Positions 3,001-55,723 of a stretch of 64,000 nucleotides of DNA are shown here, piece by piece (the stretch's first letter is position 1; every line of letters begins with the position of its first letter). The stretch lies in IMG/VR virus record IMGVR_UViG_3300037419_001521; one strand, written 5' to 3'. Below the pieces are notes generated by a model. It had not been told where the DNA came from and did not search any database. It saw only the letters and a program-made list of their open reading frames with translations. This DNA is from a virus. Taxonomy: Duplodnaviria > Heunggongvirae > Uroviricota > Caudoviricetes. A program made the translations under genes and the position numbers.

Positions 3001-3111
3001 CGGCCGGTGGATGTGCATTTCCACGTCGCGGATATGCAGGACGCGTTGCGGCAGTGGCGTCAGCATCAGCGCGAGCAGAGCCTCGGGTTCGACCCGTTCG
3101 GCGATCTGTAA
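13..3111 (+). CDS. tail tape measure protein (5' end outside window)
   Basis: 1032-aa ORF open at the window start. Repetitive Gln/Gly/Ala-rich text. Embedded NlpC/P60-like motif WLDCSGFISGVYD and transglycosylase-like motif GLAQTTGTTFDAY...AAINYIKARYG. Followed directly by tail genes. Confidence 0.85.
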   Translation: MQIIAAGAGLGPDYHPNIPQGVPNVPAAPKPGVAPAIPSGAATPDNMLPQLLGKTPGHARGGLISGDGTDTSDSILSFLSRDEFVTRAAMVRKYGLGFFQALNAGAINPATLPRFATGGAVGGATAATGPVSDSQVIQLLPMQLTQMQDTISQLARQLPAEFQKMYDAIESGTTKAQDKIGTDWTDSTNAWKDTVGNKFTGDTGKLWEKFWSDSHDTAKTQQEKIGTEWADSILHWSGLIDTQVISGLGGQWTTFWNQTNDTAKQQQDRINSGFRDNLATGLRNSTVGLVADVNTEWSKIEGVFARPVNAIIGVWNQSVVGAVPGLQPMTPIPGFANGGQPDGSPGYINGMGGSREDKHVVAVSNREYIVNAEATSRNRAVLDAINFGGERAVVPAYGLGGMTMAHEAPEVPGFSLGGIAFRHLRKAAGLHFADGGATDGSSQAAVTRALSWASALSGQPYNAEGWLDCSGFISGVYDMLLGRSPHREFTTVDNFRALGFVPGRGGIMDIGVTPLPGNAGHMAATLAGHRLESGGSHGNIMVDGSAVGADSGQFSDHYYLPGELFSPPYTGPGSNGEGGPSGSFVGMLGGAVTALGTGVQNLFSSMFQQMTDPILSGIPDVQGAGAFPKAMATKVRDALIGGIKGQEATMLLGGTIPQGMHKEIIDKALALTNTPPPGSIEEWERGLETLITRESNWNTSAINNWDSNAAAGNPSKGLAQTTGTTFDAYKVAGHDNIYEGVDNVAAAINYIKARYGSISNVQQANANMPPAGYANGTNNAKKGWAFVGEKGVELVNFAGGETVIPHELVQKLPLQDNNAMQQFGFGPGQQNQTPGSATPPFDPAQLAAQSQLQANAAGLNFLQTSAEENFRGATGQSLFNSDGFIPAIFKTVPGYMLNLMQWQQSGQLGRPYSALSNAIGSQLAAPPTNPLDPGQQGVPTNPQGQGPTSINPNIPGQLRTDLLNEQKNPADPGQQGVPVAPQGQPPTNVDPLHPALRPVDVHFHVADMQDALRQWRQHQREQSLGFDPFGDL

Positions 3112-3189
3112 CAACACAATCGAGAAAGGGCTCTTTCGTTCACTCACCGTGGATGGAGGAGCCCTTTCTTTGTGCCTGAAAGGTAATCA

Positions 3190-4128
3190 ATGGCCCCGCC
3201 TCCAGAAAAGCTCGAGATTTATTACGACGCTCCGGACGGTAAGCGCTACCACATCTCGGGCGGCGATCTCGAAGGCGCGGAAGGTATCCGTTTGGCGAAT
3301 CAGAGTCTCGGCACGATGTTCGAAGATCTTTTCGAGTCGCCGATCGATACGATTTATCAGTCGACAGCTTTCGAGGTCGGTGGCCGGTTCGGTGGTTTGC
3401 GCGAGAATATGTTCGAATTCGCGCTCGCTTTCAATGTCCGGGCGACCGGCGATACCGCGTGGCGGATCAACAACTCGCGGTTCCGGAAGTCGTTGAATTA
3501 CAAGCAAGACGGCAAGCTGTGGGTGAAGATCGTCGGCGAGTCGACGCGATACCTGTCGGTGCGGATGCAGAAGACGCCGAAGCTGAAGGTTCAGACCGAC
3601 CCGAACGAACGCCGCTACGGGCTGCTGCTGGTCAATTTCGTCGCGGCGTATCCGCGCTGGGTCGAAGACGACTGGACGCAAACGTACACGACGACGATGA
3701 ACACCACCTCCGGCGGCACCGAGACAACGCATTTCACGGCGTGGAACCCGACCAACAATGAATGCTGGATGAAGTGGTTTCTCCAAGCGGGAAATACCGG
3801 CGTGGTGTACACATTGCCGGATTTCTCGTGGGGTGACGATCGTTTCAATCGGGCCACCGAGGATGCGTCGCGGATGATCATCATGCCTGCGCTCAACAAC
3901 GGTGAGAACGTCGTGGTCGATACCGACGATTTGACGATGGCCGGTCAGGTCAACTCCAGTCTCGATACAGCGGTGTATCTGCGGATGAACGGCGTGGAGT
4001 TTCTGTACCCGTTGCCCGCGTATACCGAGCCGACGCAAATCCCAGTCGCTATCACCGGTTCTCTGCCGGGTAATCAGATTCAGCTTCGGTGCCCGCGCAC
4101 CTGGTCCAGCCCGTGGGGATTGGAGTAG
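3190..4128 (+). CDS. distal tail protein-like minor tail protein
   Basis: 312-aa ORF immediately after the tape measure gene (the usual Dit position). No specific motif recognised. Confidence 0.5.
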   Translation: MAPPPEKLEIYYDAPDGKRYHISGGDLEGAEGIRLANQSLGTMFEDLFESPIDTIYQSTAFEVGGRFGGLRENMFEFALAFNVRATGDTAWRINNSRFRKSLNYKQDGKLWVKIVGESTRYLSVRMQKTPKLKVQTDPNERRYGLLLVNFVAAYPRWVEDDWTQTYTTTMNTTSGGTETTHFTAWNPTNNECWMKWFLQAGNTGVVYTLPDFSWGDDRFNRATEDASRMIIMPALNNGENVVVDTDDLTMAGQVNSSLDTAVYLRMNGVEFLYPLPAYTEPTQIPVAITGSLPGNQIQLRCPRTWSSPWGLE

Positions 4129-4130
4129 CG

Positions 4131-5885
4131 ATGCCGATCAAGCCGACGATCATCAGGACACCTCCCGGTGCGGCGCGCAGATATCGCACAGAAGCCGCCG
4201 GTGCGCGCAAGCCTATCAAACACGGCAGTACGCGTGCTACTACGCCGACCGTTACGCATATCGATGTCGAGACCGAATACTGGAATATCGTCAATCGTCT
4301 CAAAGGCGAGCGTGAGAAGCGGGTCAATCCTCCGCTGGTGCGCCTCTGGGACGGTAACTGGGTCCTTCGCGGGCGTGTCGCTCACGCGTATACAGCGTCG
4401 TTTCAAGAGATCGACTGCGAGACCGGCGTGGGCAAGCTCGAGATGCCTAAAGACTACTATCTGTCGCAGTGGGTGGTAGACCATGATGGTCGTACGACCA
4501 AGAATATCCACGTCACCGTCGACAAAGATGGCGTCCGTTGGTCCGGCCGTATGGACCGGTACGAAATCGAGAAAACAAACGACGGTAAAGTTGTAATTCG
4601 AGTAATCTTCAAACACGATTACGAAGAATTCAAACACATCCTTTGTTGGGCAAATCCTTTCCTGCCTGCGGAAATACAATTCCCCAGATTGTGGATTCTA
4701 TTCGGACCCGCTAAATGGGCACTTAAAACAACGCTTTTCTGCAATATTCTCCGCCTCGAAGCGTCATTGTTTATGCTGCCCGACGATCCCATGGATGCAC
4801 GCCAGTGGTTCAATTTGGATCAAAGCACGTGGAGTATGGTCGTCAAGCCCGATACAGCGGCCGATAATTCTGTTTTCGGAATTGTTTTGTCGAGGTTCAA
4901 AGACTTCCACACCGTCGCGAAGAACACCCTTGAAGATGCCCAGCTCACGCCTACTTTCCGGCGATGGCTGACCGGCGATCCTCCCGCGTGGGAAGGCGCT
5001 AATCTCCGGCACGGCTGCTTGGTCATCGACATCGAAGACAAATCCGCCTGGACGACCGGTACTTCGGGTGGTGGAGACATTTTCTCCGGCCTTTTGTACT
5101 GGCTGCAAGGATTCGACGCCAACGGTTTCAACTCCGATGGTACGACGCCTGTCGCAGACCCCGCGTGGCCGGGCGAATACTACGAACCGGGATGGAAAGG
5201 CGTCCTGCCTCAGGCGCCTGCTCTGATCTACCGCGAAGGCGAGCACACCGGCATTCAAACGAGCCTTTTCACGGGCTCTCCACCGAAGGACGTCCAGCAC
5301 GTAACCGGTGGCCACTCAATGCCCGGTTTGAATGAATTGATATCCGCAGTGATAAATATGAGCGGGGATATCATCGCTGCAATGATCGGGGTCCCGCCAA
5401 TTGGCGGCATGCTCGATTCTTTGCTCAAACCGTTATATACCGATGTGTTCCTCGCATTTATGGCCTGGAAAGATATCGACCGCGCTCAGAGTCTCGGTTT
5501 CAGCCATTATCGCGAACGTTTCGCAGGCGATCCCGGTCGCGCATACAGTATTTCCGCCCTGCTCATGCTCCGCGCTTCTCTGTGGGCTACTCGCGAGACA
5601 TTCACGCATAAATTGACCGTCCTCGACGGGATGCCGTGGATTGTCGGGCAGCAGGGTTTCGGTCAGTTCTACATCGGTGACCGAATCGGTTCTACGGTGC
5701 GCGGAACTCCGCTCGGAAAGATCTACATCGACCGCGTTTCGGAAATCACCCTGCATTGGGATCGCAAGACCGCGCCGACGTGGGACATCACTATCGGTCA
5801 GCGCAAACCGTTCGATCCCGTCGCGAAAGCCTTCGAGCGCATCCAAGAGCTGATGGGCGCTATCCATGAACTCGGCGTGTGGTAA
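4131..5885 (+). CDS. minor tail protein (Tal-like, tail tip)
   Basis: Long ORF following the Dit-like gene. Start placed at ATG 4131 (MPIKPT), which sits 3 nt after the upstream stop with a GGAG-like RBS. Confidence 0.55.
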   Translation: MPIKPTIIRTPPGAARRYRTEAAGARKPIKHGSTRATTPTVTHIDVETEYWNIVNRLKGEREKRVNPPLVRLWDGNWVLRGRVAHAYTASFQEIDCETGVGKLEMPKDYYLSQWVVDHDGRTTKNIHVTVDKDGVRWSGRMDRYEIEKTNDGKVVIRVIFKHDYEEFKHILCWANPFLPAEIQFPRLWILFGPAKWALKTTLFCNILRLEASLFMLPDDPMDARQWFNLDQSTWSMVVKPDTAADNSVFGIVLSRFKDFHTVAKNTLEDAQLTPTFRRWLTGDPPAWEGANLRHGCLVIDIEDKSAWTTGTSGGGDIFSGLLYWLQGFDANGFNSDGTTPVADPAWPGEYYEPGWKGVLPQAPALIYREGEHTGIQTSLFTGSPPKDVQHVTGGHSMPGLNELISAVINMSGDIIAAMIGVPPIGGMLDSLLKPLYTDVFLAFMAWKDIDRAQSLGFSHYRERFAGDPGRAYSISALLMLRASLWATRETFTHKLTVLDGMPWIVGQQGFGQFYIGDRIGSTVRGTPLGKIYIDRVSEITLHWDRKTAPTWDITIGQRKPFDPVAKAFERIQELMGAIHELGVW

Positions 5886-8447: not shown

Positions 8448-8834
8448 GTGCAGAAAAAGATTGCGCGCCTGCATATCGAAGACGTTCAAGGTTACGGCAG
8501 TTACGCGCGCTGCTACGAATTGACGCCACCTATTTTCGACGGCGGGCTCGGCTATAAGTTCATGACAATCGTCGTTCATCCGAAACGCGAGCACGCCGAC
8601 GCTGAAGTGTTCGTTTTCTACGCGAACCATCTCGGGCTTCCGGCGGAGTTGTCGATGAAACGTCGCGGCGGGTCCTTCACTCCTTTGGGTTGTCCTCACG
8701 AAGCCGGTCAGCATTACCTCGACGGATGTTTCGTGTGGGCGCTGGCCTCCAATGGGTACGAAATCGAAGGCTACGGCTACAAAGCGCTTCCGGACGGCCT
8801 GGATTACGACCCGGATGACCTTCCTGATTATTGA
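8448..8834 (+). CDS. hypothetical protein (tail-associated)
   Basis: Start placed at GTG 8448 after an AAGGA RBS, just past the upstream stop. Stop overlaps the endolysin start. Confidence 0.45.
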   Translation: MQKKIARLHIEDVQGYGSYARCYELTPPIFDGGLGYKFMTIVVHPKREHADAEVFVFYANHLGLPAELSMKRRGGSFTPLGCPHEAGQHYLDGCFVWALASNGYEIEGYGYKALPDGLDYDPDDLPDY

Positions 8835-9994
8835 TGCACAACCTGGCGCTTATCGGATTGATTCTCGTTTCCGGCGTCGGGTCGGTTGTCGCGGCTATGT
8901 CCGTGGTCAGCATTCTCCAGCTCTACGACTGGATTTACGAACGTCTTTCTCCTCCAGAAGATTTATACGACAAAGGTGACATCATGGCTGTCCAGCCTAC
9001 ATATACCGAACTCGACCGGATGGGCAATTCTTGCGATTCCCGGTACGGCGCTCGGATCACCAATTTCCTGCTCCACACCGAAGAGGGCAATTCCACCGCC
9101 GAAGGTCTTGCCGCGTTCTGCAACAACACCGGCAACGGCGCGTCCTACCATTACACCGTCCGTAACGGAATCGTCTGCGACGTCGTGGATACCGATTACG
9201 CGAGCTGGTCGGTCGGTGACGCTAATTCCTACACCATCAATTTGTGTTTCGCCGGTTCTCGCGCGGCATGGAGTCGTGACCAGTGGCTGGCTATTTCCGG
9301 TGATTTGCAGATCGCTGCGTGGCTAGCGGTTCAGGATTGCAAGAAGTACGGCATCTCGACCGCTGTGATCGCGCCTCCGTACCACCGCGCGGACGGTATT
9401 TCCGACCATCGGTACGTCACCGACATCATCGGCTGGGGCACGCACACCGACGTCGGCGACAATTTCCCGTGGGACGTCTTCACCGGCTACGTCAACGGGT
9501 ACGTCAATCCCGGCCCGGTCCCGAACGCGATCAACGACAAAGCCGCGCAGGCTAGTTGGCTCGGTACTCGGATCACCGCTGGCGAAGGTGTCTGCCCCGA
9601 CAAGGTCGGCCGGTACGCGCAATTCCAGAACGGATACGTGTATTGGAGCCCGGCCACCGGCGCGCACACCGTCCCGAATTCCCTTTTCGGCAAATGGGCG
9701 ACATTGAAGTGGGAGGCCGGTCTGCTCGGTTACCCGATTCTCGACAACGCGGTAGTGACCGGCGGCGAATGCCAAGCCTTTCAGGACGGCTGCCTCTACC
9801 ACGAAGACGGTAAGCCTGTCGTCGCTGTCCACGGCGCGATTCTGAATTCGTGGGCGAAGGCCGGTTACGAAAAGTCTCCGCTCGGCTGGCCGATTACCGA
9901 TGAAACTCCGTTCGGCGACGGCGTCGTGCAGCAGTTCGACCACGGAAAGATTTATTGGAGCCCGTCGGGCATTGTGACGATCAAGGATCAGTAG
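8831..9994 (+). CDS. endolysin: N-acetylmuramoyl-L-alanine amidase (PGRP/Amidase_2-like) with two C-terminal LGFP repeats; possible SAR N-terminus
   Basis: Amidase_2-like segment (ITNFLLHTEEGNS..SYHYTV..). Two LGFP repeats (LGYPILD.., PLGWPITDE..). N-terminal 30 aa are Gly/Ala/Ser-rich and hydrophobic (LALIGLILVSGVGSVVAAMSVVSIL). Alternative start ATG 8983 has an AAGGTG RBS. Confidence 0.75.
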   Translation: MMHNLALIGLILVSGVGSVVAAMSVVSILQLYDWIYERLSPPEDLYDKGDIMAVQPTYTELDRMGNSCDSRYGARITNFLLHTEEGNSTAEGLAAFCNNTGNGASYHYTVRNGIVCDVVDTDYASWSVGDANSYTINLCFAGSRAAWSRDQWLAISGDLQIAAWLAVQDCKKYGISTAVIAPPYHRADGISDHRYVTDIIGWGTHTDVGDNFPWDVFTGYVNGYVNPGPVPNAINDKAAQASWLGTRITAGEGVCPDKVGRYAQFQNGYVYWSPATGAHTVPNSLFGKWATLKWEAGLLGYPILDNAVVTGGECQAFQDGCLYHEDGKPVVAVHGAILNSWAKAGYEKSPLGWPITDETPFGDGVVQQFDHGKIYWSPSGIVTIKDQ

Positions 9995-28738: not shown

Positions 28739-28894
28739 ATGGCAATCGCTAAAGGCGGCTCGAACGGAGCCTGGAACGGTTATGTCATGGTGCCGTCGAG
28801 CTGGGACCCGAAAGTCGTCTCGCGGGATATCCGGAAAGTGTTCCCCGCCCTCACCATCACCGTCGAGAACAACCCGAACGGCGGGAAGTACTGA
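28739..28894 (+). CDS. small hypothetical protein (51 aa)
   Basis: Fills the gap between the neighbouring genes. TGATG overlap downstream. Confidence 0.35.
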   Translation: MAIAKGGSNGAWNGYVMVPSSWDPKVVSRDIRKVFPALTITVENNPNGGKY

Positions 28895-29274
28895 TGAGAG
28901 AGATCACACCAGCGCAATTCATCGATCAGGTCGCCGCCGAACTCGACGAACACGGCTGGACCACAGGGATGACCAAAGCCGACAACGGGTGCGTATGTCT
29001 GTACGGCGCAATTCACGAAGCTGTCGATTTCTACCGCAAGCGCGGGTATTTCGTCGATCGCGGCGATGGCTGGCCGGTGTATTGGGAAGACTGGCCGGTC
29101 GCGGAAACCGCTGTGATGAGTATCTGGAACGCCGCGCAGCAACGGACCGCGTCTTTGATGTCGATGCAGTTCGTGCAGCCCGAGGCCATCGTGTACTTCA
29201 ACGACCATGTAGCCGGTTCGGTCGACGACGTGAAGGCGCTCCTCGAAGAGGCGAAGAAAGAGCTGACCGAGTGA
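28894..29274 (+). CDS. hypothetical protein
   Basis: 126-aa ORF. Confidence 0.45.
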   Translation: MREITPAQFIDQVAAELDEHGWTTGMTKADNGCVCLYGAIHEAVDFYRKRGYFVDRGDGWPVYWEDWPVAETAVMSIWNAAQQRTASLMSMQFVQPEAIVYFNDHVAGSVDDVKALLEEAKKELTE

Positions 29275-29545: not shown

Positions 29546-29716
29546 ATGTCCAGCAAGCGGCCCGACCGCAAACCTATCCGCCGAGAGCAAGCCGACCAAC
29601 GCCGCGAAGACCGTTCACCCGGCGAGCAGTGGCGCAACCTGGATCGTCGTCTCGGCCCCGACCGTGGGGCTATGCAGGAACGCGCGCAGCTGTACGTACG
29701 GATGGACGACCAGTGA
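29546..29716 (+). CDS. small basic protein (56 aa)
   Basis: AGGGAGGAGAG RBS. Confidence 0.4.
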   Translation: MSSKRPDRKPIRREQADQRREDRSPGEQWRNLDRRLGPDRGAMQERAQLYVRMDDQ

Positions 29717-30492
29717 CCCGGCGGCTCGTTATCGGCTCGACGGCGGCGCACGTTCATGGCTATCTCGACCGGCTCCCCGATGATTTGGACGCGTTCTCCG
29801 ACGAACCGGCGGACGGCAAAGACGATTTCTTCTGGGACGACGCGCTCGCTGAGTGGATTCCTGATGGCACGGACCGGCTGGCGACTCTCGACGAGCTGTA
29901 CACCATCAAGCTCTCGCACGCGTATTGGGAGCTGAAGAACGGCACCTGGCGCAAACATATGCACGACTTGGTGGCGTTGCAGGATGCGGGTGCGGAAGTC
30001 GATCAACCGCTGCACGATCTGCTGTACGGCGTGTGGGAGCGCAGGCACGGAAAGAAGCGCGTCGATCTTACCCAGGAATCCGACGAGTTCTTTTCCGATG
30101 CGGTTCGCCGCGCGTACGACCACGATAGTTTGCACCGCTCCGTAGCGTATAGCGAGCGCCCGCTGTATGAGGAAGTATTGAAAGCGGGAAAGAGTGTTCA
30201 GATGGATATGAAGAAAGTCTGGGCGCTGCCGTTCGAATTGCAAGTCAAGCTGTTTCGCGAAGAGGTCTACGTTACCGCACTGGAGCGGATCGTCATTCCT
30301 TCTGATTACACCGCAAGTCCACGCGCTGCGTATATGTGGGCTCTCCGGCGGACTATCACGTCGTTGACGAAAGGTAAGTCCGCGCAGTTCATCGCCGAGC
30401 ATTACAAAACCTTCCGCGATCCCGACATCGATTACGTGAAGCACCATTTGTCGAACGCGGACAAGCTTATCCCACTGGAGGCCGACGCATGA
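29713..30492 (+). CDS. hypothetical protein
   Basis: GTGA overlap start. 259 aa. Confidence 0.45.
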   Translation: MTRRLVIGSTAAHVHGYLDRLPDDLDAFSDEPADGKDDFFWDDALAEWIPDGTDRLATLDELYTIKLSHAYWELKNGTWRKHMHDLVALQDAGAEVDQPLHDLLYGVWERRHGKKRVDLTQESDEFFSDAVRRAYDHDSLHRSVAYSERPLYEEVLKAGKSVQMDMKKVWALPFELQVKLFREEVYVTALERIVIPSDYTASPRAAYMWALRRTITSLTKGKSAQFIAEHYKTFRDPDIDYVKHHLSNADKLIPLEADA

Positions 30493-30577
30493 TCGATTTC
30501 ATTCATTCTCTTCTGCACCACCCGATTCACACCCTCGAGCAGCGGTACGTCACCCCGATCGAAATCTGGAGCTGGTA

Positions 30578-30967
30578 ATGGCATTCACCGCCAAGCACGT
30601 CGAAGAAGCCCTCGAATCTTTCGACATCGTCTACAGCAGCGACAGTGGTCGTTGGAGCTTCGAGCCCTGCACCAAGCACAGCCCTGGGTTCTCCTGGACT
30701 GAGTTCGGGTACGCCCTCGACGATAAAGACCCGATCATTGCCTCCGGATTGGGCGTGATCACCGGCGTTGTCGTCGATTCCGGCCACGAAGGTCACGGCG
30801 AGTACTGCGAGCTGGTGTTCAAGCTGACCCTCGACGACGGCACCGAGCAGTACTTCAAGAAGGTCGGCTATTACGCGAGCTTCTACGGCACCGACTGGGA
30901 CGGCGGTTTCTACGAAGTGAAGCCCACCGAAAAGGTCGTCACCGTGTACCCGCGACTGGATTCGTGA
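30578..30967 (+). CDS. paralogue family member 1 (four tandem paralogues)
   Basis: Shares YxxVFE..DGT..FKKxG..SYxG..WDxGxFYEVxP.EKxxTVY with the next three genes. Confidence 0.5.
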   Translation: MAFTAKHVEEALESFDIVYSSDSGRWSFEPCTKHSPGFSWTEFGYALDDKDPIIASGLGVITGVVVDSGHEGHGEYCELVFKLTLDDGTEQYFKKVGYYASFYGTDWDGGFYEVKPTEKVVTVYPRLDS

Positions 30968-31290
30968 TGGATCTCGACGACATCACAGACGCGCTGTACA
31001 AATACCGCGACTCCTATGACTGGGAGGACTGGGTATACCGCCAAGGTACGCACATGGTGCCCGAACTGGGCTGTGTTCGCGTCGTAGATGCCACTTTCGA
31101 CGACCCGGACGAAGGCGACGAGGTTTACATCGTTTTCGAGATCCTCACGGACATCGACGGCCCTAATCGCTTTTACAAGATCGACGGCACATATTCATCG
31201 TTCGGCAGAAGTCGTTGGTCCGACTGTGTGCACCAAGTAAAGCAGGCGTTGCAGTGGACGACCGTTTACAAGCGAGTGGAGGACTACTGA
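30964..31290 (+). CDS. paralogue family member 2
   Basis: EVYIVFEILTDIDGPNRFYKIDGTYSSFG. Confidence 0.5.
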   Translation: MMDLDDITDALYKYRDSYDWEDWVYRQGTHMVPELGCVRVVDATFDDPDEGDEVYIVFEILTDIDGPNRFYKIDGTYSSFGRSRWSDCVHQVKQALQWTTVYKRVEDY

Positions 31291-31682
31291 TGCTTTCCGT
31301 CAGTCAGATCGAAAGCGCTATCGAGAACTTCAGCCACCGCGTTCCGTTCAGCTACATCAACGGGCTCGGCAAGGAAGTCTCCGGCACCACCACCTTCAGT
31401 GGCTGGGAGGGATTCTTCGACATGCTCACCCGCAACGGTGTCGAACTCGAAGGTGTCGGCACAGCGTATCGAGTCGACGAAGTCGGCGGTGAAGGTGAAG
31501 GCGACTACATGCACGTCGTTTTCGAAATCATCGACAAAGACGGCACCGCGCGGTTGTTCAAGAAGGAAGGCCGCTGGGTCTCCTACGACGGCGCGTATTG
31601 GGACGAGGGCGACTGCGATTTCTACGAAGTAGTGCCCAAAGAAAAAACCATCACCGTTTACGAAAGGAAAACAGGTCGGTGA
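31290..31682 (+). CDS. paralogue family member 3
   Basis: YMHVVFEIIDKDGTARLFKKEGRWVSYDGAYWDEGDCDFYEVVPKEKTITVY. Confidence 0.5.
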   Translation: MLSVSQIESAIENFSHRVPFSYINGLGKEVSGTTTFSGWEGFFDMLTRNGVELEGVGTAYRVDEVGGEGEGDYMHVVFEIIDKDGTARLFKKEGRWVSYDGAYWDEGDCDFYEVVPKEKTITVYERKTGR

Positions 31683-32056
31683 CCGACGATAATTTCGAGC
31701 TGTACAAAGCGCACCACCTCCTCGCTGAAACAAAGCAGTGGGATCAGTGGAGTTACTGCGCGAGCAAGCCGGTCTCCGTCGAGGGGTTGGGGACCGTCGA
31801 AATCGCGCACACCCTCGAAGACACCCGCACCAAGCGCAGCAATTATTACGACAGCGCGTATGAGCAGGGTTCGACCGCTCCGGCCGGAATGATCTTCAGG
31901 GTCACCTACCCGGACGAGTCTGTGCGTCATTTCCAGAAGAGCGGCACGTTCGACTCTTACGGCGAGGCCGAGTACACCGGATCGTTCTTCGAAGTGGCGA
32001 CGGTGGAAAAGACGATTCTCACCTTCGAGCCGACCACCGTTCGTAAGTTCGCGTAG
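31679..32056 (+). CDS. paralogue family member 4
   Basis: GTGA overlap start. FRVTYPDESVRHFQKSGTFDSYGEAEYTGSFFEVATVEKTILTF. Confidence 0.5.
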   Translation: MTDDNFELYKAHHLLAETKQWDQWSYCASKPVSVEGLGTVEIAHTLEDTRTKRSNYYDSAYEQGSTAPAGMIFRVTYPDESVRHFQKSGTFDSYGEAEYTGSFFEVATVEKTILTFEPTTVRKFA

Positions 32057-32070
32057 AAAGTAGCTGTTTC

Positions 32071-32949
32071 ATGCCTTGGATGTGGGTTTTCTCCATTCTG
32101 TTTTTCTTGCTCGCGCTCGGGTGTGTGGGCCTGGCTTTCGTATTCAAAGACGACGACGGGCATATCGGGTTCGGGCTCGGCGCATTCGTCCTGGTCATTC
32201 TCAGTTTCGGGTTCGGAATGTGGTCGATCATCGGCGTTGTACCTACCCGGAATGTCGGCATCGTCACGACGTTCGGCAAGCCGGTGGGTATTCGGTCGAA
32301 CGGGTTGACGTGGAAAGCGCCGTGGGAGCACCTGACCGATCTCGACGGCACCATTCAGACCGACTCTCAGATCGGCGGGTTCGACAGCAATGGTCACTGC
32401 ACCGGCGGCACTGCGGTCCGGCTGGCCAATAACAGCACGGCATGCGTCGACAACACCATTCAGTGGCGGATCAACCCCGACGCCGGTGACGCGCTGTTCC
32501 GCGACTACTCCACCTTCCCGAAGATTCAGGACAGCCTCGTCACCCGCAACCTGAACGCGACGCTCAACACCGAGTTCGCTGCCTACAACCCACTGAGCCC
32601 GGAAGCCGCCGGTGGCCCGAACCTGACCGATCTGTCAGCGAAGGTCACCAAGGATCTCCAAGCGAAGGTCGGCACCCAGATCGAAGTGCGGGGCGTCATC
32701 ATCTCGATCGTTCACCTCGACGGGGAGACTCAAGGCAAGGTGAACGCTCTCCAAGCGCAGATCGCCAACACCCACATCGCCGAAGAGTCGCAGAAGACCG
32801 CCGCCGCGCAGGCTCAGGCGAACAAGATCCTCGCCGACAGTGTGAACAACGACCTGAACGTGCTGATCTCACGCTGCTTGGATCTAGTGAATTCCGGTAA
32901 GGGGGTCATGCCCTGCATCCCCGGCGCTGGCCTGCCTTTCGGGCGGTAA
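32071..32949 (+). CDS. SPFH/band-7 (stomatin/prohibitin-like) membrane protein
   Basis: Two N-terminal TM segments, then VPTRNVGIVTTFGK...IQWRINP... and an Ala/Gln-rich coiled coil, typical of the SPFH domain. Confidence 0.65.
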   Translation: MPWMWVFSILFFLLALGCVGLAFVFKDDDGHIGFGLGAFVLVILSFGFGMWSIIGVVPTRNVGIVTTFGKPVGIRSNGLTWKAPWEHLTDLDGTIQTDSQIGGFDSNGHCTGGTAVRLANNSTACVDNTIQWRINPDAGDALFRDYSTFPKIQDSLVTRNLNATLNTEFAAYNPLSPEAAGGPNLTDLSAKVTKDLQAKVGTQIEVRGVIISIVHLDGETQGKVNALQAQIANTHIAEESQKTAAAQAQANKILADSVNNDLNVLISRCLDLVNSGKGVMPCIPGAGLPFGR

Positions 32950-32952
32950 CCG

Positions 32953-33222
32953 ATGTCTGCCGAATCCCGGAAGCGATGGAATTTCGACCGTCGCGGGGTA
33001 CCGGACATTCTGACCCACAACGGCGTCGAGTACATCAGCCGGAAGGAAGCGGCGCACAGGCTGGACCTCACGCCCGGCGGACTCGACTACCAGGTACGCA
33101 AATCGCAGCTGATCGGGTACCGAATACCCGCCGTCAATAACCCGTCCTACAACCCGACCAGGCCGCCGGTGTTTTTTCGCGCCGAAGATATCGCAGCCCT
33201 GCTGGAAGAGAGGTCCGCGTGA
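32953..33222 (+). CDS. hypothetical protein
   Basis: 89-aa ORF. Confidence 0.4.
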   Translation: MSAESRKRWNFDRRGVPDILTHNGVEYISRKEAAHRLDLTPGGLDYQVRKSQLIGYRIPAVNNPSYNPTRPPVFFRAEDIAALLEERSA

Positions 33223-33521
33223 TCAACTGGCTCGGTCAGGAATTCCAGGTCGGCGATTACGTCGGCTGCGGTCGGCGGGACGGGAACACCAGCTGCTACC
33301 GCCTCGGCCGGGTGGTCGGTTTCGACGAACCGAAGCGCACCGCGAATATCGCCTGGCTGTACGAACCGTGGCCCCGCAATTCCGATACACCGTGGATTTC
33401 GATCACAACCTACTCCGGCAGGGCTTCGATCGGAAATCCCAGCATTGACACTCTGTTCCTCCTCGATATCACTTCGTTCGCTCCAGCTCTCCGAGAAACA
33501 CTCACCAAGAAAGGTCACTGA
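33219..33521 (+). CDS. hypothetical protein
   Basis: 100-aa ORF. Confidence 0.4.
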   Translation: MINWLGQEFQVGDYVGCGRRDGNTSCYRLGRVVGFDEPKRTANIAWLYEPWPRNSDTPWISITTYSGRASIGNPSIDTLFLLDITSFAPALRETLTKKGH

Positions 33522-36217: not shown

Positions 36218-36396
36218 TGGACGAGGCCACCTACACCGTCAACTACTACGTCGAGGAATCCCGCAGCGTTCATATCCGAGTCGACCTCGGGCCGGATGAA
36301 GGCGAAGCCGAAGCGATTGCTTTCCGCGACGAAGTGTACCCCGGCTGTTCTTTGTTCAAACAGGAATTGTGGCACAAATACACAGAGGTGGTATGA
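36217..36396 (+). CDS. hypothetical protein
   Basis: Short ORF ahead of the nuclease gene. Confidence 0.3.
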   Translation: MDEATYTVNYYVEESRSVHIRVDLGPDEGEAEAIAFRDEVYPGCSLFKQELWHKYTEVV

Positions 36397-37193
36397 CAGA
36401 CGAATTCGATTCAGTTCTCAACGTCGACGGCGCGGAAGATGCTGCGTTGCTGGAGGACATCAAGCAATTCATCCTCGACGCGGAGGCAAACAAGCCTCGG
36501 TCTCTGCAACGGACACCTGGTTGTTCGGAAGTTGGCCATCCGTGTCAACGGAAGCTCGCTTACCTGATCAACGCATCGCGCCGCGACAACACCGAGTTCC
36601 GGGGGATCAACCGGTTTTCCGATCCGATGCCCGCGATCTTCGGTACAGCGATGCACACCTGGCTCGAAGACGCGGTGCAGGTAGCCAACGAACGACTCGG
36701 GCGGCTGCGGTGGATTCCCGAAGTGAAGGTGGAGGTCCGGCCAGGACTGCCGGGTACGTGCGACTTGTACGACCTGGACACCCAATCGGTACTCGACTAC
36801 AAAGTCCTCGGCAAAACCAGCTACGACAAAGTGGCCAAGTACGGGGTCTCGCCGACGTATCGGGCGCAGCGGCATTTATACGGGCGCGGGTATAAAAACC
36901 TCGGGATGCCGGTCAAGTACGTCGGCAACATCATCCTCTCCCGGACCGGGACGCTGCGGCAGATGTTCCTCGACCGAGAGCCGTACGACGACGCGTATGT
37001 AGACGAGATCCTGACTCGCATCGACGACACCGAGCGGTTGATGGCTGACAAGGATATCGAAAACGATCCGCGCGGCTTCCTGGAAATTCCGATCACTCCG
37101 GGTGACGACTGCCAATACTGCGGGTGGTGGTCACTCAATCCGACCGGCTATTTCCAGTGCGGCGGCAAGCAGGAAATGAGGAAGGCGGCATGA
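36393..37193 (+). CDS. Cas4/RecB-family PD-(D/E)xK exonuclease with C-terminal Cys cluster
   Basis: GCSEVGHPCQRKL...DLYDLD...LDYK plus C-terminal CQYCGWW...C, as in Cas4-like phage exonucleases. Confidence 0.6.
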   Translation: MTDEFDSVLNVDGAEDAALLEDIKQFILDAEANKPRSLQRTPGCSEVGHPCQRKLAYLINASRRDNTEFRGINRFSDPMPAIFGTAMHTWLEDAVQVANERLGRLRWIPEVKVEVRPGLPGTCDLYDLDTQSVLDYKVLGKTSYDKVAKYGVSPTYRAQRHLYGRGYKNLGMPVKYVGNIILSRTGTLRQMFLDREPYDDAYVDEILTRIDDTERLMADKDIENDPRGFLEIPITPGDDCQYCGWWSLNPTGYFQCGGKQEMRKAA

Positions 37194-45545: not shown

Positions 45546-47951
45546 GTGAGCGCCGAAGAACCCGGATACGGATCAGAAGCGGTTGATTACTGGCAGGCGG
45601 GTTTTCGGGGCGTGCTGCCGCTGCCATACGGAAAGAAGTTCCCGCCCCCGAAAGGATGGACCGGTTATGACGCGCCGTGGCCTTCGTTCCCGGATATTCA
45701 AGCGTGGGTCGAGGAACAGCCGGGCGGCAACCTGGGACTGCGTCTGCCGAATACGGTCGTAGGAATCGACGTAGACGGCTACAACGACAAGCGCGGCGGT
45801 CTCACCCTCGAATACGCCGAAACGCTCTGGGGGAAGCTGCCCGACACCGTTCGGTCTACGTCACGTATCGACGGCGTCTCCGGCATTCGGCTGTATCGCG
45901 TACCGGCGGGCACTGAACTCGAAACCGTCGTCGCATTCCCGGACAAGGGGCTGGCGGGAATCGAAGTCTGTCAGTTCTTCCACCGGTATGTCGTCGCATG
46001 GCCGAGCTACCACGAAGGAACGCAGCGCCGGTACCGGTGGATCGACACGCGCGGCAACGTCAGTAGCGACATCCCCCGGCCGAGCGAACTCCCCGAACTG
46101 CCCGCCGAGTGGATCGAAGGACTGCGCCGCAAATCTGCCGGGTCGGCAACGGTGTCCGCTGATGCGCTGAAGAACCTCGCCGCGCTGCCGGGTGGGGTCA
46201 TGTCGCCTGCGGTGGCGTCGGAGTTGGCTCGGGCTCAGCTTGCGCTCACGAGTGGGGCCGGGAGTCGGCATGACGTCGTTCTCGCTGCTGTCGGTGCGCT
46301 GTTCCGGCTGGCTGAGCGCGGCGGCGAGACCGGTATCCGCGAAGCGCTGGACAAGCTGGGGCACGCCTTCATTGCCGCAGTGACGAAAGACGGTTCGCGG
46401 ACGCGGGAAGAGGCGCAGCTCGAGTGGGATCGGATGGTGCGGGGTCAGCGTATCCACGACCTGATCGCATCCACTCCGTCTGTGCCGACCTTGTCGGATC
46501 TGCTGGGCAAGAAGACCACCGAACCCGACTGGATGAACAACCCGAAGATTTCGACTGTCGACTGGCGGCCGATCGGACCGACGTTCACCGCTGAGTACAA
46601 CCCGGCACTGAAGCCCGATCCGGCGACGATCCGAGCGAATCCAGATCACGCCGGGAAGACGATCCTGCACGACGTCACGGTCACGATCAACGGCCACCGA
46701 ATGCTTGACGAGTTCGATGCCGCGCTGATGGGTGAACCATTCGGAATTTCCGAACAGTTGGACGAGTTCGACGCTGCGTTGATGTACGGCGAGGTGCTGG
46801 ACGATATCGACGCAGCGGTGATGGCCGAACAGGAGGAAGAGGGCACCACCCAGTCGCGCACGTCGTGGGGTCTGGTCGACATGGCCGCGATCCTAGCCGG
46901 AGATCTGAAGCCGGAGGAGCCTACGGTGCTGCATCGCGCGGACGGCAAGGCGGTGTTCTACCGAGGGCGGGTCAATGCGGTGGTCGGTCCGCCCGAAGCG
47001 GGTAAGTCTTGGCTGACGTTCATGGCGTGCTCGGAGGAGATGCAAGGCCGCAACAGCATCCTGATCCTCGACTTCGAAGACACGCCGGAGAATGTCGCGC
47101 TGCGCTGCCTGGCGATCCGGTTGTCGGGTCAGGGTACGACGAAACAGATGTTGATCGATCACCTCGGGTATATCGCGCCGGACACGATGATGGGTGAAGC
47201 CGAACGCGATGAATTCTTTGCAGACCTCGACCGGCTCAATCCTACGGTGATTGTTGTCGATGGTGTGAACGCCGCGATGACGCTGCTCGGTTTGGAATTG
47301 GAGAAGAACAGGGATTGCACGCAGTTCTTTCAATTGATTCTCAAACCGTTGGCGCTCACCGGCGCGGCTGTCATTACTGTCGATCACGTCACTAAATCGC
47401 GGGAATCGCGCGGTAATTACGCTATCGGCGCGCAAGCCAAACGAGCTATGACAGACGGTGCGATGCTCGGAGTGGAAGCTGTCGAACAATTCGGACGCGG
47501 ACGCCTCGGTAAATTGGAAGTGTCGGTGTTGAAAGACAAACCCGGAGGGGTCCGGGCTATCGCGGAAAAGCGTGGAGACAAAGGGATCGATTATCTGGGT
47601 TCCGTTATTGTCGATGCCCGCAACGAAGGCGTTGTCGATATGCGTTTCGTATTCGAAGAAAATAAACCGGACGAACCGGAAACGATGACGAAAGGTGAAA
47701 AGGATCTCGTCGTCAAAATGATCGAAGTATCGAACAAGATGCAGCAATACGATCCGGACGGCAAGGGCCTGACCATCAACTCCATCGTGGACGTGTCGCG
47801 CGGCAGGAGGGTGGACGTCATCGCCGCGATCGACACTCTGGTCCGGACGCACCACCTCGAAGTCACCTCCGGGGCGCGCGGTTCCAAGATCCACCGACTG
47901 GTGCGCCCCTACCTCGGACCCGAACTGGATGCGCTTCTCGGTGACGACTAG
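45546..47951 (+). CDS. bifunctional primase-polymerase / RecA-fold (DnaB/KaiC-like) replicative helicase
   Basis: N-terminal PrimPol-like region (LPLPYGKKFPPPKGWTGY, GIDVDGY). C-terminal Walker A (GPPEAGKSW) and ILILDFEDT helicase core. Confidence 0.75.
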   Translation: MSAEEPGYGSEAVDYWQAGFRGVLPLPYGKKFPPPKGWTGYDAPWPSFPDIQAWVEEQPGGNLGLRLPNTVVGIDVDGYNDKRGGLTLEYAETLWGKLPDTVRSTSRIDGVSGIRLYRVPAGTELETVVAFPDKGLAGIEVCQFFHRYVVAWPSYHEGTQRRYRWIDTRGNVSSDIPRPSELPELPAEWIEGLRRKSAGSATVSADALKNLAALPGGVMSPAVASELARAQLALTSGAGSRHDVVLAAVGALFRLAERGGETGIREALDKLGHAFIAAVTKDGSRTREEAQLEWDRMVRGQRIHDLIASTPSVPTLSDLLGKKTTEPDWMNNPKISTVDWRPIGPTFTAEYNPALKPDPATIRANPDHAGKTILHDVTVTINGHRMLDEFDAALMGEPFGISEQLDEFDAALMYGEVLDDIDAAVMAEQEEEGTTQSRTSWGLVDMAAILAGDLKPEEPTVLHRADGKAVFYRGRVNAVVGPPEAGKSWLTFMACSEEMQGRNSILILDFEDTPENVALRCLAIRLSGQGTTKQMLIDHLGYIAPDTMMGEAERDEFFADLDRLNPTVIVVDGVNAAMTLLGLELEKNRDCTQFFQLILKPLALTGAAVITVDHVTKSRESRGNYAIGAQAKRAMTDGAMLGVEAVEQFGRGRLGKLEVSVLKDKPGGVRAIAEKRGDKGIDYLGSVIVDARNEGVVDMRFVFEENKPDEPETMTKGEKDLVVKMIEVSNKMQQYDPDGKGLTINSIVDVSRGRRVDVIAAIDTLVRTHHLEVTSGARGSKIHRLVRPYLGPELDALLGDD

Positions 47952-54422: not shown

Positions 54423-54602
54423 ATGTCCGACAAGTTCCTAACCCGAGCGCAAGTTGCCGAAAGGCTTGATCTCGCACCAAAAACCCTTGCCAACTGGGCA
54501 TCTGCTGGCAAGGGGCCGAGGTGCATTCGCCTCGCTGGCGGTGCCGTCCGGTATCCGCGCGAGGAGTACGAAGCCTGGGAGCAGCAGCAGCTCACCGCAT
54601 AA
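54423..54602 (+). CDS. xis: excisionase-like HTH protein (59 aa)
   Basis: MSDKFLTRAQVAERLDLAPKTLANWASAGKGP is a MerR/Xis-type HTH. Lies directly upstream of int. Confidence 0.6.
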   Translation: MSDKFLTRAQVAERLDLAPKTLANWASAGKGPRCIRLAGGAVRYPREEYEAWEQQQLTA

Positions 54603-54616
54603 GAAAGAGATCCGCA

Positions 54617-55723
54617 ATGGCAAGCGTCTGGATTCAGCCGAAAAACGGAAAATACCTGGTCCGCTGGTATGTCGACGACCCGAAGGCCGAGAAGTCGGAG
54701 ACCTTCACCAAGCTGGGGAATACGAAGACTCCCGGCACGGCGAAGTACCGCCAGCGCGAGCTGGAAGAACAGCTAGCCAAGGGGACGTACGTCGACCCAA
54801 AGCTCGGAAAGCAGAAACTTGGTGCGGTCGTTGACAAGTGGGCGGCTCGCGCCAACGTCGAGAGCACCGAGGATATTCGCCAGTCATTCCGCAATGACCT
54901 CGGCGACTTGGCTGGAATGGCCGTTGATGACATCCGGGCTCCACATGTGCGCGACTGGCTTGATGTTCTGCGCAACGGCCGTCCATGGGCCGGAGGAACG
55001 GCTCTCGCTCCCGGCACGGTGAAGCGCCGCCTCGACATGCTGAAAACCGTGCTCAACCAGCTGGTTTCCGATGAAGTCCTGGTGAAGAATCACGCGGCGA
55101 ACGTGAAGGCCCCGCCGGTCAGTTCGGTTGTGCTGCCGGAAGATTTGATGACCCTCTCCGACGCCCAGATCATCCTCAAGGAGGCCCGCGACAGCCGACT
55201 GAGGGCGATGTGCTCGGTGTCGATGAAATGCGGTCTACGGCCCGCTGAGGTGGCAGGACTACGCGTCCGGGACATCCTGGTCGACGCGTGCTCTATCGCG
55301 GTCATGCAGCAGATCACCCGCAGGCGAGTGGCGACAAGCGTACTGAAGACGGAGACGTCGCGTCGAATCATTGCAGCACCGGCCGATCTCATCGCCGATC
55401 TCACGCCGTTCATGCAGGGCAAAGGGCTCGACGATCTGCTGTTCACTACCGCGAACAACCGGCCGTACAGCAGCAAGGATCTCGGCGATTGGCTCGCCCG
55501 CCGGACGGTCAGTGCGGGGCTGCCGCGTCAGTTCACCTGGAAGGACTTCCGGCACTTCTACGCGTCCTGCCTGATCTTTCAGGGGATCAACGTGAAGACC
55601 GTGCAGAAGAGCATGGGACACGCCTCGGCTTCGATCACTCTGAACGTTTACACGCACCTGTGGCCGAACCAGGAAGCGGCGGTCAGGAGCGCGGTCGAGG
55701 ACATCTGGGGCTTGGCAGCCTAA
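54617..55723 (+). CDS. int: tyrosine integrase
   Basis: SAM-like N-domain. Catalytic C-domain with R...HxxR...Y (FRHFYASCL...LNVYTHL). AAGAAAGAG RBS. Confidence 0.85.
   Translation: MASVWIQPKNGKYLVRWYVDDPKAEKSETFTKLGNTKTPGTAKYRQRELEEQLAKGTYVDPKLGKQKLGAVVDKWAARANVESTEDIRQSFRNDLGDLAGMAVDDIRAPHVRDWLDVLRNGRPWAGGTALAPGTVKRRLDMLKTVLNQLVSDEVLVKNHAANVKAPPVSSVVLPEDLMTLSDAQIILKEARDSRLRAMCSVSMKCGLRPAEVAGLRVRDILVDACSIAVMQQITRRRVATSVLKTETSRRIIAAPADLIADLTPFMQGKGLDDLLFTTANNRPYSSKDLGDWLARRTVSAGLPRQFTWKDFRHFYASCLIFQGINVKTVQKSMGHASASITLNVYTHLWPNQEAAVRSAVEDIWGLAA

What the first reader, a model, noticed from the sequence alone, without database searches (positions are those of the whole stretch)
30578..32949. 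Four tandem paralogues of a roughly 110-130-aa protein followed immediately by an SPFH/band-7 membrane protein
Genes 30578, 30964, 31290 and 31679 all end with a shared (Y/F)xxVFE..DGT..(F/Y)KKxG..SYxG..(W/F)DxGxFYEVxPxEKxxTVY signature, indicating serial duplication and divergence. Directly downstream (32071-32949) is a stomatin/prohibitin-like SPFH-domain membrane protein. SPFH proteins scaffold membrane microdomains and protease complexes, and are rare in phages. A diversified four-member family next to an SPFH protein could be a membrane-associated host-takeover or defence-related module.
Basis: partly seen in the sequence, partly recalled or inferred. Interest (0 to 1): 0.6.

Follow-up and report, generated by a model that had tools for sequence, protein, structure and literature searches.

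The report
Nucleotidyltransferase partner-domain genes, quadruplicated in a phage
The four small paralogous genes are real, but they belong with the AbiEii/MenT-like nucleotidyltransferase gene just upstream, not with the membrane SPFH gene downstream; this enzyme-plus-partner module is widespread in phages and has not been described.

Summary
Genes A to D (30578-32056) are true paralogues, and 32071-32949 is a Band_7/SPFH membrane protein. The proposed SPFH link does not hold. SPFH follows the array only in the window's immediate lineage (window, L004, L120). It lies within 4-5 kb in 2 of 104 other related viral loci.

The constant partner is the upstream gene 29713-30492. It is DUF7275, shown here to be an AbiEii/MenT-like nucleotidyltransferase (NTase). 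In 71 of 75 NTase-anchored viral loci, 1-4 small-family genes follow it directly. In 27 of 29 loci found through the small family, the NTase is adjacent.

In at least 120 protein clusters from T4-like phages, the small domain is fused to the C-terminus of the NTase. In the window, NTase, a 29-aa ORF and A to D are joined by overlapping stop/start codons. SPFH is not.

The small domain is acidic (pI about 4.5) and has no Pfam or NCBIfam model and no convincing PDB fold relative. It has at least 3,384 clusters at 50% identity.

Best reading: these are detached, multiplied regulatory or specificity subunits of a phage NTase. Their biochemical role is inferred, not shown.

The parts
29713..30492 (+). 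DUF7275 protein (259 aa): an AbiEii/MenT-like pol-beta-fold nucleotidyltransferase and the conserved partner of the small family. The GTG at 29713 is the likely start. The ORF list gives an earlier GTG at 29629.
30489..30578 (+). Tiny ORF (29 aa, MIDFIHSLLHHPIHTLEQRYVTPIEIWSW) bridging the NTase and paralogue A through ATGA and TAATG overlaps. It is seen only in the window's close lineage.
   Evidence: Sequence and translation. It is conserved with an in-frame 2-codon indel in L004 and L120. dN/dS is 0.21 against L004, based on few sites.
30578..30967 (+). Paralogue A (129 aa, pI 4.50): stand-alone NTase-partner domain.
   Evidence: Positional orthologues are L004_1 and L043_1. dN/dS is 0.40.
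30964..31290 (+). Paralogue B (108 aa, pI 4.28): the most diverged between relatives. Its start overlaps the stop of A (GTGA).
   Evidence: It is 47% identical to its L004 orthologue, with dN/dS 0.33.
31290..31682 (+). Paralogue C (130 aa, pI 4.62): the copy closest to the family consensus. Its start overlaps the stop of B (TGATG).
   Evidence: The AF2 model has pLDDT 91.7. dN/dS is 0.27.
31679..32056 (+). Paralogue D (125 aa, pI 5.00): the most divergent from the family profile. Its start overlaps the stop of C (GTGA).
   Evidence: Orthologues are L004_4, L043_4, L042_3 and L044_3. dN/dS is 0.19.
32071..32949 (+). SPFH/Band-7 membrane protein (292 aa; two N-terminal hydrophobic segments, SPFH domain at 56-248). 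It is a lineage-specific neighbour and not part of the conserved module.
   Evidence: Pfam Band_7 5.6e-14. phrog_200 1.7e-42. 370 phage records, annotated band-7-like membrane protein. Hydropathy. A 14-nt spacer separates it from D. SPFH is absent from most related loci.

Best explanation
The four genes encode stand-alone copies of a small acidic beta-rich domain. That domain is the dedicated partner of a phage nucleotidyltransferase (NTase) of the AbiEii/MenT (DUF1814-like) kind, encoded immediately upstream at 29713-30492. In many T4-like phages the same domain is the C-terminal part of the NTase polypeptide. In actinophages it has been split off and duplicated into 1-5 tandem genes that have since diverged.

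In this window NTase, a 29-aa ORF, A, B, C and D form one translationally coupled unit.

I infer that each paralogue binds the NTase and gates or redirects its active site. That would make it a regulatory or specificity subunit, comparable to the antitoxin half of MenAT/AbiE systems. On this reading the phage makes several differently tuned versions of one enzyme, and the likeliest substrate, by homology, is the 3' end of tRNA or another RNA.

The SPFH gene downstream is an unrelated accessory gene inserted in this lineage.

Shown here: the paralogy, the NTase identity, the conserved adjacency, the fusion, and purifying selection. Inferred: physical binding, the regulatory role, and the substrate.
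For: (1) Synteny from the small family. Of 29 IMG/VR loci found through the small-family motif, 26 have DUF7275 directly upstream on the same strand and 1 has it directly downstream. One of the two remaining loci is cut at the contig end.
(2) Synteny from the NTase. Of 75 loci found through DUF7275, 71 have 1-4 small-family genes directly downstream. Three of the four exceptions are truncated within 700 nt.
(3) Host range. The same pairing occurs in Mycobacterium phage WXIN with 4-5 copies and in Gordonia CQ-type and Streptomyces BE-type phages. It also occurs in Rhodococcus phage NiceHouse, Nocardia prophages and the T4-like Vibrio phage VH7D, where the small gene is upstream.
(4) Fusion. L030 encodes a 424-aa NTase-small-domain protein. 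All 120 listed homologues (348-424 aa, from JGI, ENA, Logan, NCBI and Tara sources) contain both domains. They sit in T4-like genomes with 0-1 free copies.
(5) Overlapping stop/start codons link NTase, orf29, A, B, C and D, whereas D and SPFH are 14 nt apart.
(7) The copies are maintained as distinct genes. Positional orthologues exist across phages, and the best hit lies in another locus for 242 of 257 proteins. dN/dS is 0.19-0.40.
(8) The small domain is strongly acidic, with net charge -7 to -12 and family median pI 4.58. It has near-invariant GGEGxG, G94, Y96, S98 and G101, and a C-terminal PKEKTITVYE tail that has no secondary structure in the monomer model. An interaction surface would look like this.
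(9) MenT toxins are known to be controlled by diverse, unrelated small partners (PMC7450476; PMC11375011).
Against: - No direct test of binding was possible. There was no multimer prediction and no experiment.
- In AbiE/MenAT systems the antitoxin gene lies upstream and is single-copy. Here the partner is usually downstream and multi-copy, which a plain toxin-antitoxin logic does not predict.
- The NTase is itself mildly acidic (pI 5.6), so a simple charge-complementarity argument is weak.
- E. coli Mosigvirus and Acinetobacter T4-like phages have a 318-aa DUF7275 protein with no detectable small domain nearby. The enzyme can therefore exist without it.
- The small domain has no recognisable fold relative that would indicate a mode of action.
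Confidence: 0.6

Rival explanations
1. The small proteins are acceptors rather than regulators. The NTase nucleotidylylates (or phosphorylates) their invariant Ser98/Tyr96 or the Thr/Tyr-rich C-terminal tail (KTITVYE). The modified proteins are then the active agents or a sink.
For: G94, Y96, S98 and G101 are near-invariant, and T120, T122 and Y124 are 74-89% conserved across 164 family members. The tail is unstructured in the monomer model. Adjacency and fusion with an NTase are documented. MenT-type NTases do transfer phosphate to a protein hydroxyl in their own active site (PMC11375011). From my own knowledge, not tested here: the type VII HEPN-MNT pair works by AMPylating a tyrosine.
Against: There is no evidence of modification. 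The conserved hydroxyl residues may simply be structural. A substrate fused to its own enzyme in more than 120 clusters would be unusual unless it is auto-regulatory, and that would merge this rival with the best explanation.
Confidence: 0.15
2. The small proteins act independently of the NTase and merely travel with it in a conserved early-gene block. On this reading they would be acidic inhibitors of host factors, for example nucleic-acid mimics against restriction or defence systems, or nucleotide-signal sponges.
For: The proteins are small, very acidic and phage-specific. Copy number varies from 1 to 5, and they evolve faster than the NTase (dN/dS 0.19-0.40 against 0.13). This profile is typical of arms-race proteins. 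There are no PADLOC hits and no known fold. One locus (L033) has a copy with no NTase within 5 kb.
Against: A covalent fusion to the NTase in at least 120 independent clusters and near-obligate adjacency across very distant phages are hard to explain without functional coupling. The overlapping codons point the same way.
Confidence: 0.12
3. The four paralogues and the SPFH protein form one membrane-associated host-takeover or defence module.
For: The adjacency is kept in three closely related genomes: window, L004 and L120. The genes share a strand. In two further loci an SPFH gene lies within 4 kb of the module (L085, L095).
Against: None of 29 and only 2 of 75 related loci have an SPFH gene nearby. 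Nocardia prophages with 71-75% identical NTase lack it. NiceHouse has both elements 19 kb apart. The paralogues have no membrane segments. A 14-nt spacer replaces codon overlap. Band-7-like genes occur in hundreds of actinophages that have no such array next to them.
Confidence: 0.04

Closest known systems
MenAT / AbiE nucleotidyltransferase toxin-antitoxin systems (DUF1814 NTases: AbiEii, MenT1-4)
   Different: The partner is a new beta-rich acidic domain. It is unrelated to AbiEi/COG5340, MazE-like MenA1 or COG4861. It usually lies downstream, in 1-5 diverged copies or fused at the C-terminus. It is carried by phages, both lytic T4-like and temperate, within early-gene blocks rather than on bacterial chromosomes as a defence island. 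The window protein does not reach the AbiEii Pfam cut-off. Toxicity and tRNA activity are untested.
Fused toxin-antitoxin CapRel(SJ46) and the mycobacteriophage Phrann gp29/gp30 pair (comparison from my own knowledge, not tested here)
   Same: In those systems a nucleotide-transferring toxin domain acting on tRNA or nucleotides is held in check by a small regulatory domain. That domain can be either fused or a separate adjacent gene. Phrann gp29/gp30 is phage- or prophage-encoded.
   Different: The enzyme family differs (RelA/SpoT-like synthetase rather than AbiEii-like NTase), and so does the regulatory fold. No multi-copy partner arrays are known there.
Actinophage 'band-7-like membrane proteins' (phrog_200; e.g. 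LeBron gp49)
   Same: The gene at 32071-32949 is an ordinary member. It has the Band_7 domain, N-terminal membrane segments, a length of about 290 aa and 38-52% identity to annotated phage genes. LeBron gp49 is a 298-aa TMD Band-7-like protein that is mildly cytotoxic on overexpression (PMC13148394).
   Different: Nothing notable, except that its position next to the NTase module is specific to this lineage.
PHROG families 8206, 18295, 13591 and 35118 (unknown function)
   Same: All four paralogues match phrog_8206 and phrog_18295, so the sequences are already catalogued as hypothetical phage proteins.
   Different: These entries carry no function or domain definition and no link to DUF7275. 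No Pfam or NCBIfam model exists.

Membership tests
SPFH / Band_7 (PF01145), gene 32071-32949 | Profile match above the curated threshold over the whole SPFH domain | tested here: met
   53 bits against a cut-off of 23.6, E 5.6e-14. Profile positions 2-176 of 176 align to residues 56-248.
SPFH / Band_7 (PF01145), gene 32071-32949 | N-terminal membrane anchor | tested here: met
   Two hydrophobic stretches, at about residues 1-28 and 30-59 (Kyte-Doolittle above 1.6 over 19 residues).
SPFH / Band_7 (PF01145), gene 32071-32949 | Operon partner of NfeD type, common in bacterial SPFH operons but not obligatory | tested here: not met
   The downstream gene 32953-33222 and the upstream paralogues have no Pfam hit at E up to 1.
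DUF7275 (PF23940), gene 29713-30492 | Profile match above the curated threshold | tested here: met
   206.5-207.8 bits against a cut-off of 27.
AbiEii / MenT (DUF1814) nucleotidyltransferases, gene 29713-30492 | Pol-beta motif I, hG[GS]x9-13Dh[DE]h | tested here: met
   IGS(8-9)...DLD(24-26), with G8 nearly invariant (at least 90%) and S9, D24 and D26 invariant in 30 homologues.
AbiEii / MenT (DUF1814) nucleotidyltransferases, gene 29713-30492 | Match to the AbiEii profile (PF08843, C-terminal motifs III/IV) above the curated threshold | tested here: inconclusive
   The window protein scores 12.7-14.2 bits against a cut-off of 22.5 (E 0.04-0.12), aligned to profile positions 135-217. Among homologues, 11 of 30 match at E up to 1, best 9.6e-8. 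Three database homologues carry a precomputed PF08843 hit.
AbiEii / MenT (DUF1814) nucleotidyltransferases, gene 29713-30492 | Bi-lobed NTase fold like MenT structures | tested here: met
   [not shown]
AbiEii / MenT (DUF1814) nucleotidyltransferases, gene 29713-30492 | Cognate antitoxin of a known type (AbiEi/COG5340, MazE-like, COG4861) encoded upstream | tested here: not met
   Upstream genes are small ORFs with no such Pfam hits. The conserved neighbour is the new small domain, which lies downstream.
AbiEii / MenT (DUF1814) nucleotidyltransferases, gene 29713-30492 | Growth inhibition neutralised by the partner; nucleotide addition to tRNA 3' ends | not testable with these tools
   This needs expression and tRNA assays.
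Small acidic partner domain (phrog_8206 / phrog_18295), genes A to D | Significant match of each paralogue to an independent family profile | tested here: met
   phrog_8206 matches at 1.1e-16, 5.1e-9, 2.9e-19 and 1.3e-6. The independent HMM gives 1.9e-17, 3.8e-8, 1.3e-20 and 1.9e-3.
Small acidic partner domain (phrog_8206 / phrog_18295), genes A to D | Conserved core GGEGxG ... G-x-Y-x-S-Y-x-G ... EV-P-x-EK-TITVYE | tested here: met
   The full core is present in C. It is partly degenerate in the others: GHEGHG in A, PDEGDE in B and EQGSTA in D.
Small acidic partner domain (phrog_8206 / phrog_18295), genes A to D | Adjacent to, or fused with, a DUF7275 NTase | tested here: met
   The window layout matches 27 of 29 and 71 of 75 related loci. 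There are also 120 fusion clusters.

The most novel reading that the evidence does not exclude
This is a previously unrecognised, widespread two-component phage system. One AbiEii/MenT-type nucleotidyltransferase is re-targeted or switched by interchangeable small acidic subunits. The subunits are fused in T4-like phages and multiplied to 2-5 diverged copies in actinophages. The system would let the phage modify, or protect, several different host or phage tRNAs or other RNA 3' ends. Its role would be host takeover or countering tRNA-directed immunity. The tandem array would then be a specificity repertoire shaped by an arms race.
Probability: 0.25. Interest if true: 0.75.

Novelty: new variant of a known kind. 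Interest (0 to 1): 0.55.

Why it matters
AbiEii/MenT nucleotidyltransferases are known as bacterial toxins that stop translation by extending tRNA 3' ends. They are also known as anti-phage abortive-infection effectors.

This work shows that a sister family (DUF7275, 729 phage records by tblastn) is carried by phages themselves. These range from T4-like myoviruses to temperate actinophages. The family almost always comes with a dedicated, so far unannotated partner domain of at least 3,384 clusters at 50% identity.

That gives a DUF a concrete biochemical hypothesis. It also defines a new domain family with a clear genomic signature. It raises a testable question: do phages use the host's own toxin chemistry for takeover or counter-defence, and do they diversify it through tandem partner paralogues?

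For annotation, the four 'hypothetical proteins' and their upstream neighbour should be treated as one unit. The band-7 gene should not be read as part of it.

Tried and rejected
- Near-identity DNA search of 30400-33300 against GenBank phages found nothing. The window comes from an uncultured phage on a JGI contig. Its nearest NTase relatives are in Nocardia genomes.
- Pfam (E up to 1), NCBIfam and PADLOC found nothing for A to D or for ten other family members.
- A profile search of PDB sequences with the small-family and NTase alignments gave no hit.
- Foldseek against BFVD returned only family members and unnamed proteins.
- The afdb50 library was unavailable.
- Literature searches for 'DUF7275' and for 'band-7-like membrane protein' + 'phage' gave 0 papers. 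A search for AbiEii + mycobacteriophage returned only the MenT papers.
- I looked for the module in T4 itself, in the e-tRNA region. It is absent.
- I looked for a small domain near the 318-aa NTase of E. coli Mosigvirus G53 and Acinetobacter AM101. None was detectable.
- The promoter and terminator scan of 27-36 kb was uninformative, with fewer sites than in shuffles.
- I considered recent in-genome tandem amplification and rejected it. Each copy's best relative is in another genome.
- I considered an assembly frameshift as the cause of the L030 fusion and rejected it. All 120 independent homologous clusters carry the same fusion.
Full report
**1. What is there**

On the + strand the window encodes A 30578-30967 (129 aa), B 30964-31290 (108 aa), C 31290-31682 (130 aa) and D 31679-32056 (125 aa). 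A 292-aa ORF follows at 32071-32949.

The similarity is more than chance:
- Pairwise blastp gives A-C 1.8e-15 and 1e-5 to 1e-7 for A-B, A-D, B-C and C-D.
- All four hit the same PHROG families of unknown function, phrog_8206 and phrog_18295.
- An HMM built only from distant metagenomic members scores C 1.3e-20, A 1.9e-17, B 3.8e-8 and D 1.9e-3.
- The window contains exactly four copies.

The downstream gene is a bona fide SPFH protein. It matches Pfam Band_7 at 53 bits against a cut-off of 23.6. It has two N-terminal hydrophobic segments.

**2. The SPFH gene is ordinary and is not the partner**

tblastn finds the SPFH protein in 370 phage records (257 Mycobacterium, 89 Streptomyces, plus Gordonia and Rhodococcus). 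These are annotated 'band-7-like membrane protein'. LeBron gp49 is one such gene and is mildly cytotoxic on overexpression (PMC13148394). In Gordonia phage Mareelih and Rhodococcus phage NiceHouse the band-7 gene has quite different neighbours.

The array-then-SPFH order is kept only in the window's nearest relatives, L004 and L120, whose NTases are 88% and 83% identical. Elsewhere it is not:
- The next relatives are Nocardia prophages L121 and L122. Both have the array but no SPFH.
- Mycobacterium phage WXIN has 4-5 copies followed by a 291-aa protein with no SPFH similarity.
- NiceHouse has both elements about 19 kb apart.
- None of 29 small-family loci and only 2 of 75 NTase-anchored loci have an SPFH gene within 4-5 kb.

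**3. The constant neighbour is the gene upstream**

Gene 29713-30492 matches Pfam DUF7275 (4e-61). The 259-aa gene call P0162 is identical to it, so GTG 29713 is the likely start.

I fetched 29 IMG/VR loci through the small-family motif. Of these, 26 have DUF7275 directly upstream on the same strand and 1 has it directly downstream. One of the two remaining loci is cut at the contig end.

I then fetched 75 loci through DUF7275. Of these, 71 have small-family genes directly downstream. Eleven loci have 1 copy, 24 have 2, 25 have 3 and 11 have 4. Three of the four negatives are truncated within 700 nt.

The pair spans phages of Mycobacterium, Gordonia, Streptomyces, Rhodococcus and Nocardia. It also occurs in low-GC uncultured phages and in the T4-like Vibrio phage VH7D, where the small gene is immediately upstream.

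**4. Domain fusion**

In L030 a single 424-aa ORF carries the NTase at the N-terminus and the small domain at the C-terminus, ending ...KPKQKTITVYE. A database search with this protein listed 120 clusters of 348-424 aa from five independent sources. All 120 contain both domains.

Two of them lie in 150-165 kb contigs of about 35% GC with T4-type portal, gp13 and UvsX/RecA genes. Those loci have no further free copy. This is classical Rosetta-stone evidence that the two proteins work together.

Within the window, NTase, a 29-aa ORF, A, B, C and D are joined by ATGA, TAATG, GTGA, TGATG and GTGA overlaps. D and SPFH are separated by 14 nt.

**5. What the upstream enzyme is**

Thirty homologues share the pol-beta nucleotidyltransferase signature G8-S9...D24-x-D26, with S9, D24 and D26 invariant and G8 conserved in at least 90%. 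Eleven of the thirty match Pfam AbiEii (PF08843) over its C-terminal motif region, best E 9.6e-8. The window protein itself is sub-threshold at 12.7-14.2 bits.

MenT/AbiEii enzymes are DUF1814 NTases with four motifs. They add nucleotides to tRNA acceptor ends and are controlled by diverse antitoxins (PMC7450476; PMC11375011).

DUF7275 is thus a phage branch of that superfamily. tblastn finds it in 729 phage records, including many T4-like coliphages and Acinetobacter phages. In some of these it is annotated 'putative nucleotidyltransferase'. The literature search found no paper mentioning DUF7275.

**6. What the small domain is**

- An exhaustive HMM search finds 3,384 clusters at 50% identity with E up to 1e-3, and 1,017 with E up to 1e-10. 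Some are tandem two-domain proteins.
- No Pfam, NCBIfam or PADLOC model matches.
- The AF2 model of C has pLDDT 91.7. It shows helix, hairpin, helix, then an antiparallel sheet. The last 15 or so residues have no secondary structure.
- Across 164 members the near-invariant positions are a GGEGxG hairpin loop, G94, Y96, S98, G101, V114 and P116, plus the C-terminal KTITVYE.
- The proteins are strongly acidic. pI is 4.3-5.0 and net charge is -7 to -12 in the window. The family median pI is 4.58.

**7. History of the array**

A, C and D (and more weakly B) each have positional orthologues in L004, L043, L042 and L044. For 242 of 257 family proteins the best relative is in another genome, not the same array. 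The duplications are therefore old and the copies are kept as distinct genes.

Against L004, dN/dS is 0.13 for the NTase. It is 0.19-0.40 for A to D and 0.24 for SPFH. All are under purifying selection, and the partners evolve faster than the enzyme.

**8. Mechanism**

Shown: the paralogy, the NTase identity, the near-obligate adjacency, the fusion, the coupling and the selection.

Inferred: the small proteins bind the NTase. I favour a regulatory or specificity-subunit role, analogous to the antitoxin half of MenAT/AbiE but with a new fold. The reasons are:
- the domain is acidic;
- it carries a conserved loop and a free conserved tail suited to occupying an active-site groove;
- it occurs at 1:1 when fused.

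The retention of several old, diverged copies fits different tunings or targets better than simple neutralisation.

Rivals are that the proteins are acceptors of nucleotidylylation, that they act independently, or the SPFH model. Points against my reading:
- no binding test was possible;
- the similarity to MenT is moderate;
- the gene order and copy number are unlike classical TA systems;
- some T4-like coliphages have the NTase without a detectable partner.

**9. Verdict**

The SPFH-centred interpretation is not supported. The real unit is an NTase plus its quadruplicated partner domain. This is a new variant of a known kind of system. It is widespread, unannotated and experimentally tractable in culturable actinophages.

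Noticed in passing
window 30489-30578 (+): A 29-aa ORF (MIDFIHSLLHHPIHTLEQRYVTPIEIWSW) fills the gap between the NTase and paralogue A. It overlaps both (ATGA, TAATG). It is conserved with an in-frame 2-codon indel and synonymous changes in L004 and L120 (dN/dS 0.21). More distant relatives lack it, and there the first small gene abuts the NTase.
   Followed up: partly
window 29629 vs 29713 (+): The mechanical ORF for the NTase starts at GTG 29629 (287 aa). All database homologues and the identical JGI gene call (P0162, 259 aa) start at the GTG at 29713.
   Followed up: yes
window 1-64000: The window looks like a temperate siphovirus-type actinophage. It has a tape measure (13-3111), minor tail proteins (3190-5885), an endolysin (8831-9994), a Cas4-like exonuclease (36369-37193), a primase/polymerase (45546-47951) and a tyrosine integrase (54521-55723). 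There are no tRNA genes. The nearest NTase relatives are in Nocardia genomes (70-75%), so the host is probably Nocardia-like.
   Followed up: partly
L039 (E. coli Mosigvirus G53, 2656-3612) and L040 (Acinetobacter phage AM101, 2665-3618): T4-like coliphages and Acinetobacter phages carry a 318-aa DUF7275 protein with an extra N-terminal region of about 100 aa. No small-family gene is detectable nearby. In G53 the gene sits in the e/nudE-to-tRNA interval. T4 itself lacks it there.
   Followed up: partly
P0018-P0023, P0026, P0034, P0039, P0040, P0106 and others: Some family members are 180-285 aa proteins with two tandem copies of the small domain. The domain therefore also occurs as covalent pairs, which echoes the tandem gene arrays.
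   Followed up: no
L001 6092-6967 (Mycobacterium phage WXIN): In WXIN the array is followed by a 291-aa protein with no SPFH similarity. The same position in the window lineage is taken by SPFH, and in L122 by a DnaB-type helicase. The slot after the array is therefore variable.
   Followed up: no
window 28894-29274 (+): A DUF6197 protein (126 aa) lies three genes upstream of the NTase in L004 and L120, and the corresponding window ORF has the same length and position. It is not seen in more distant loci.
   Followed up: no
[not shown]
   Followed up: no
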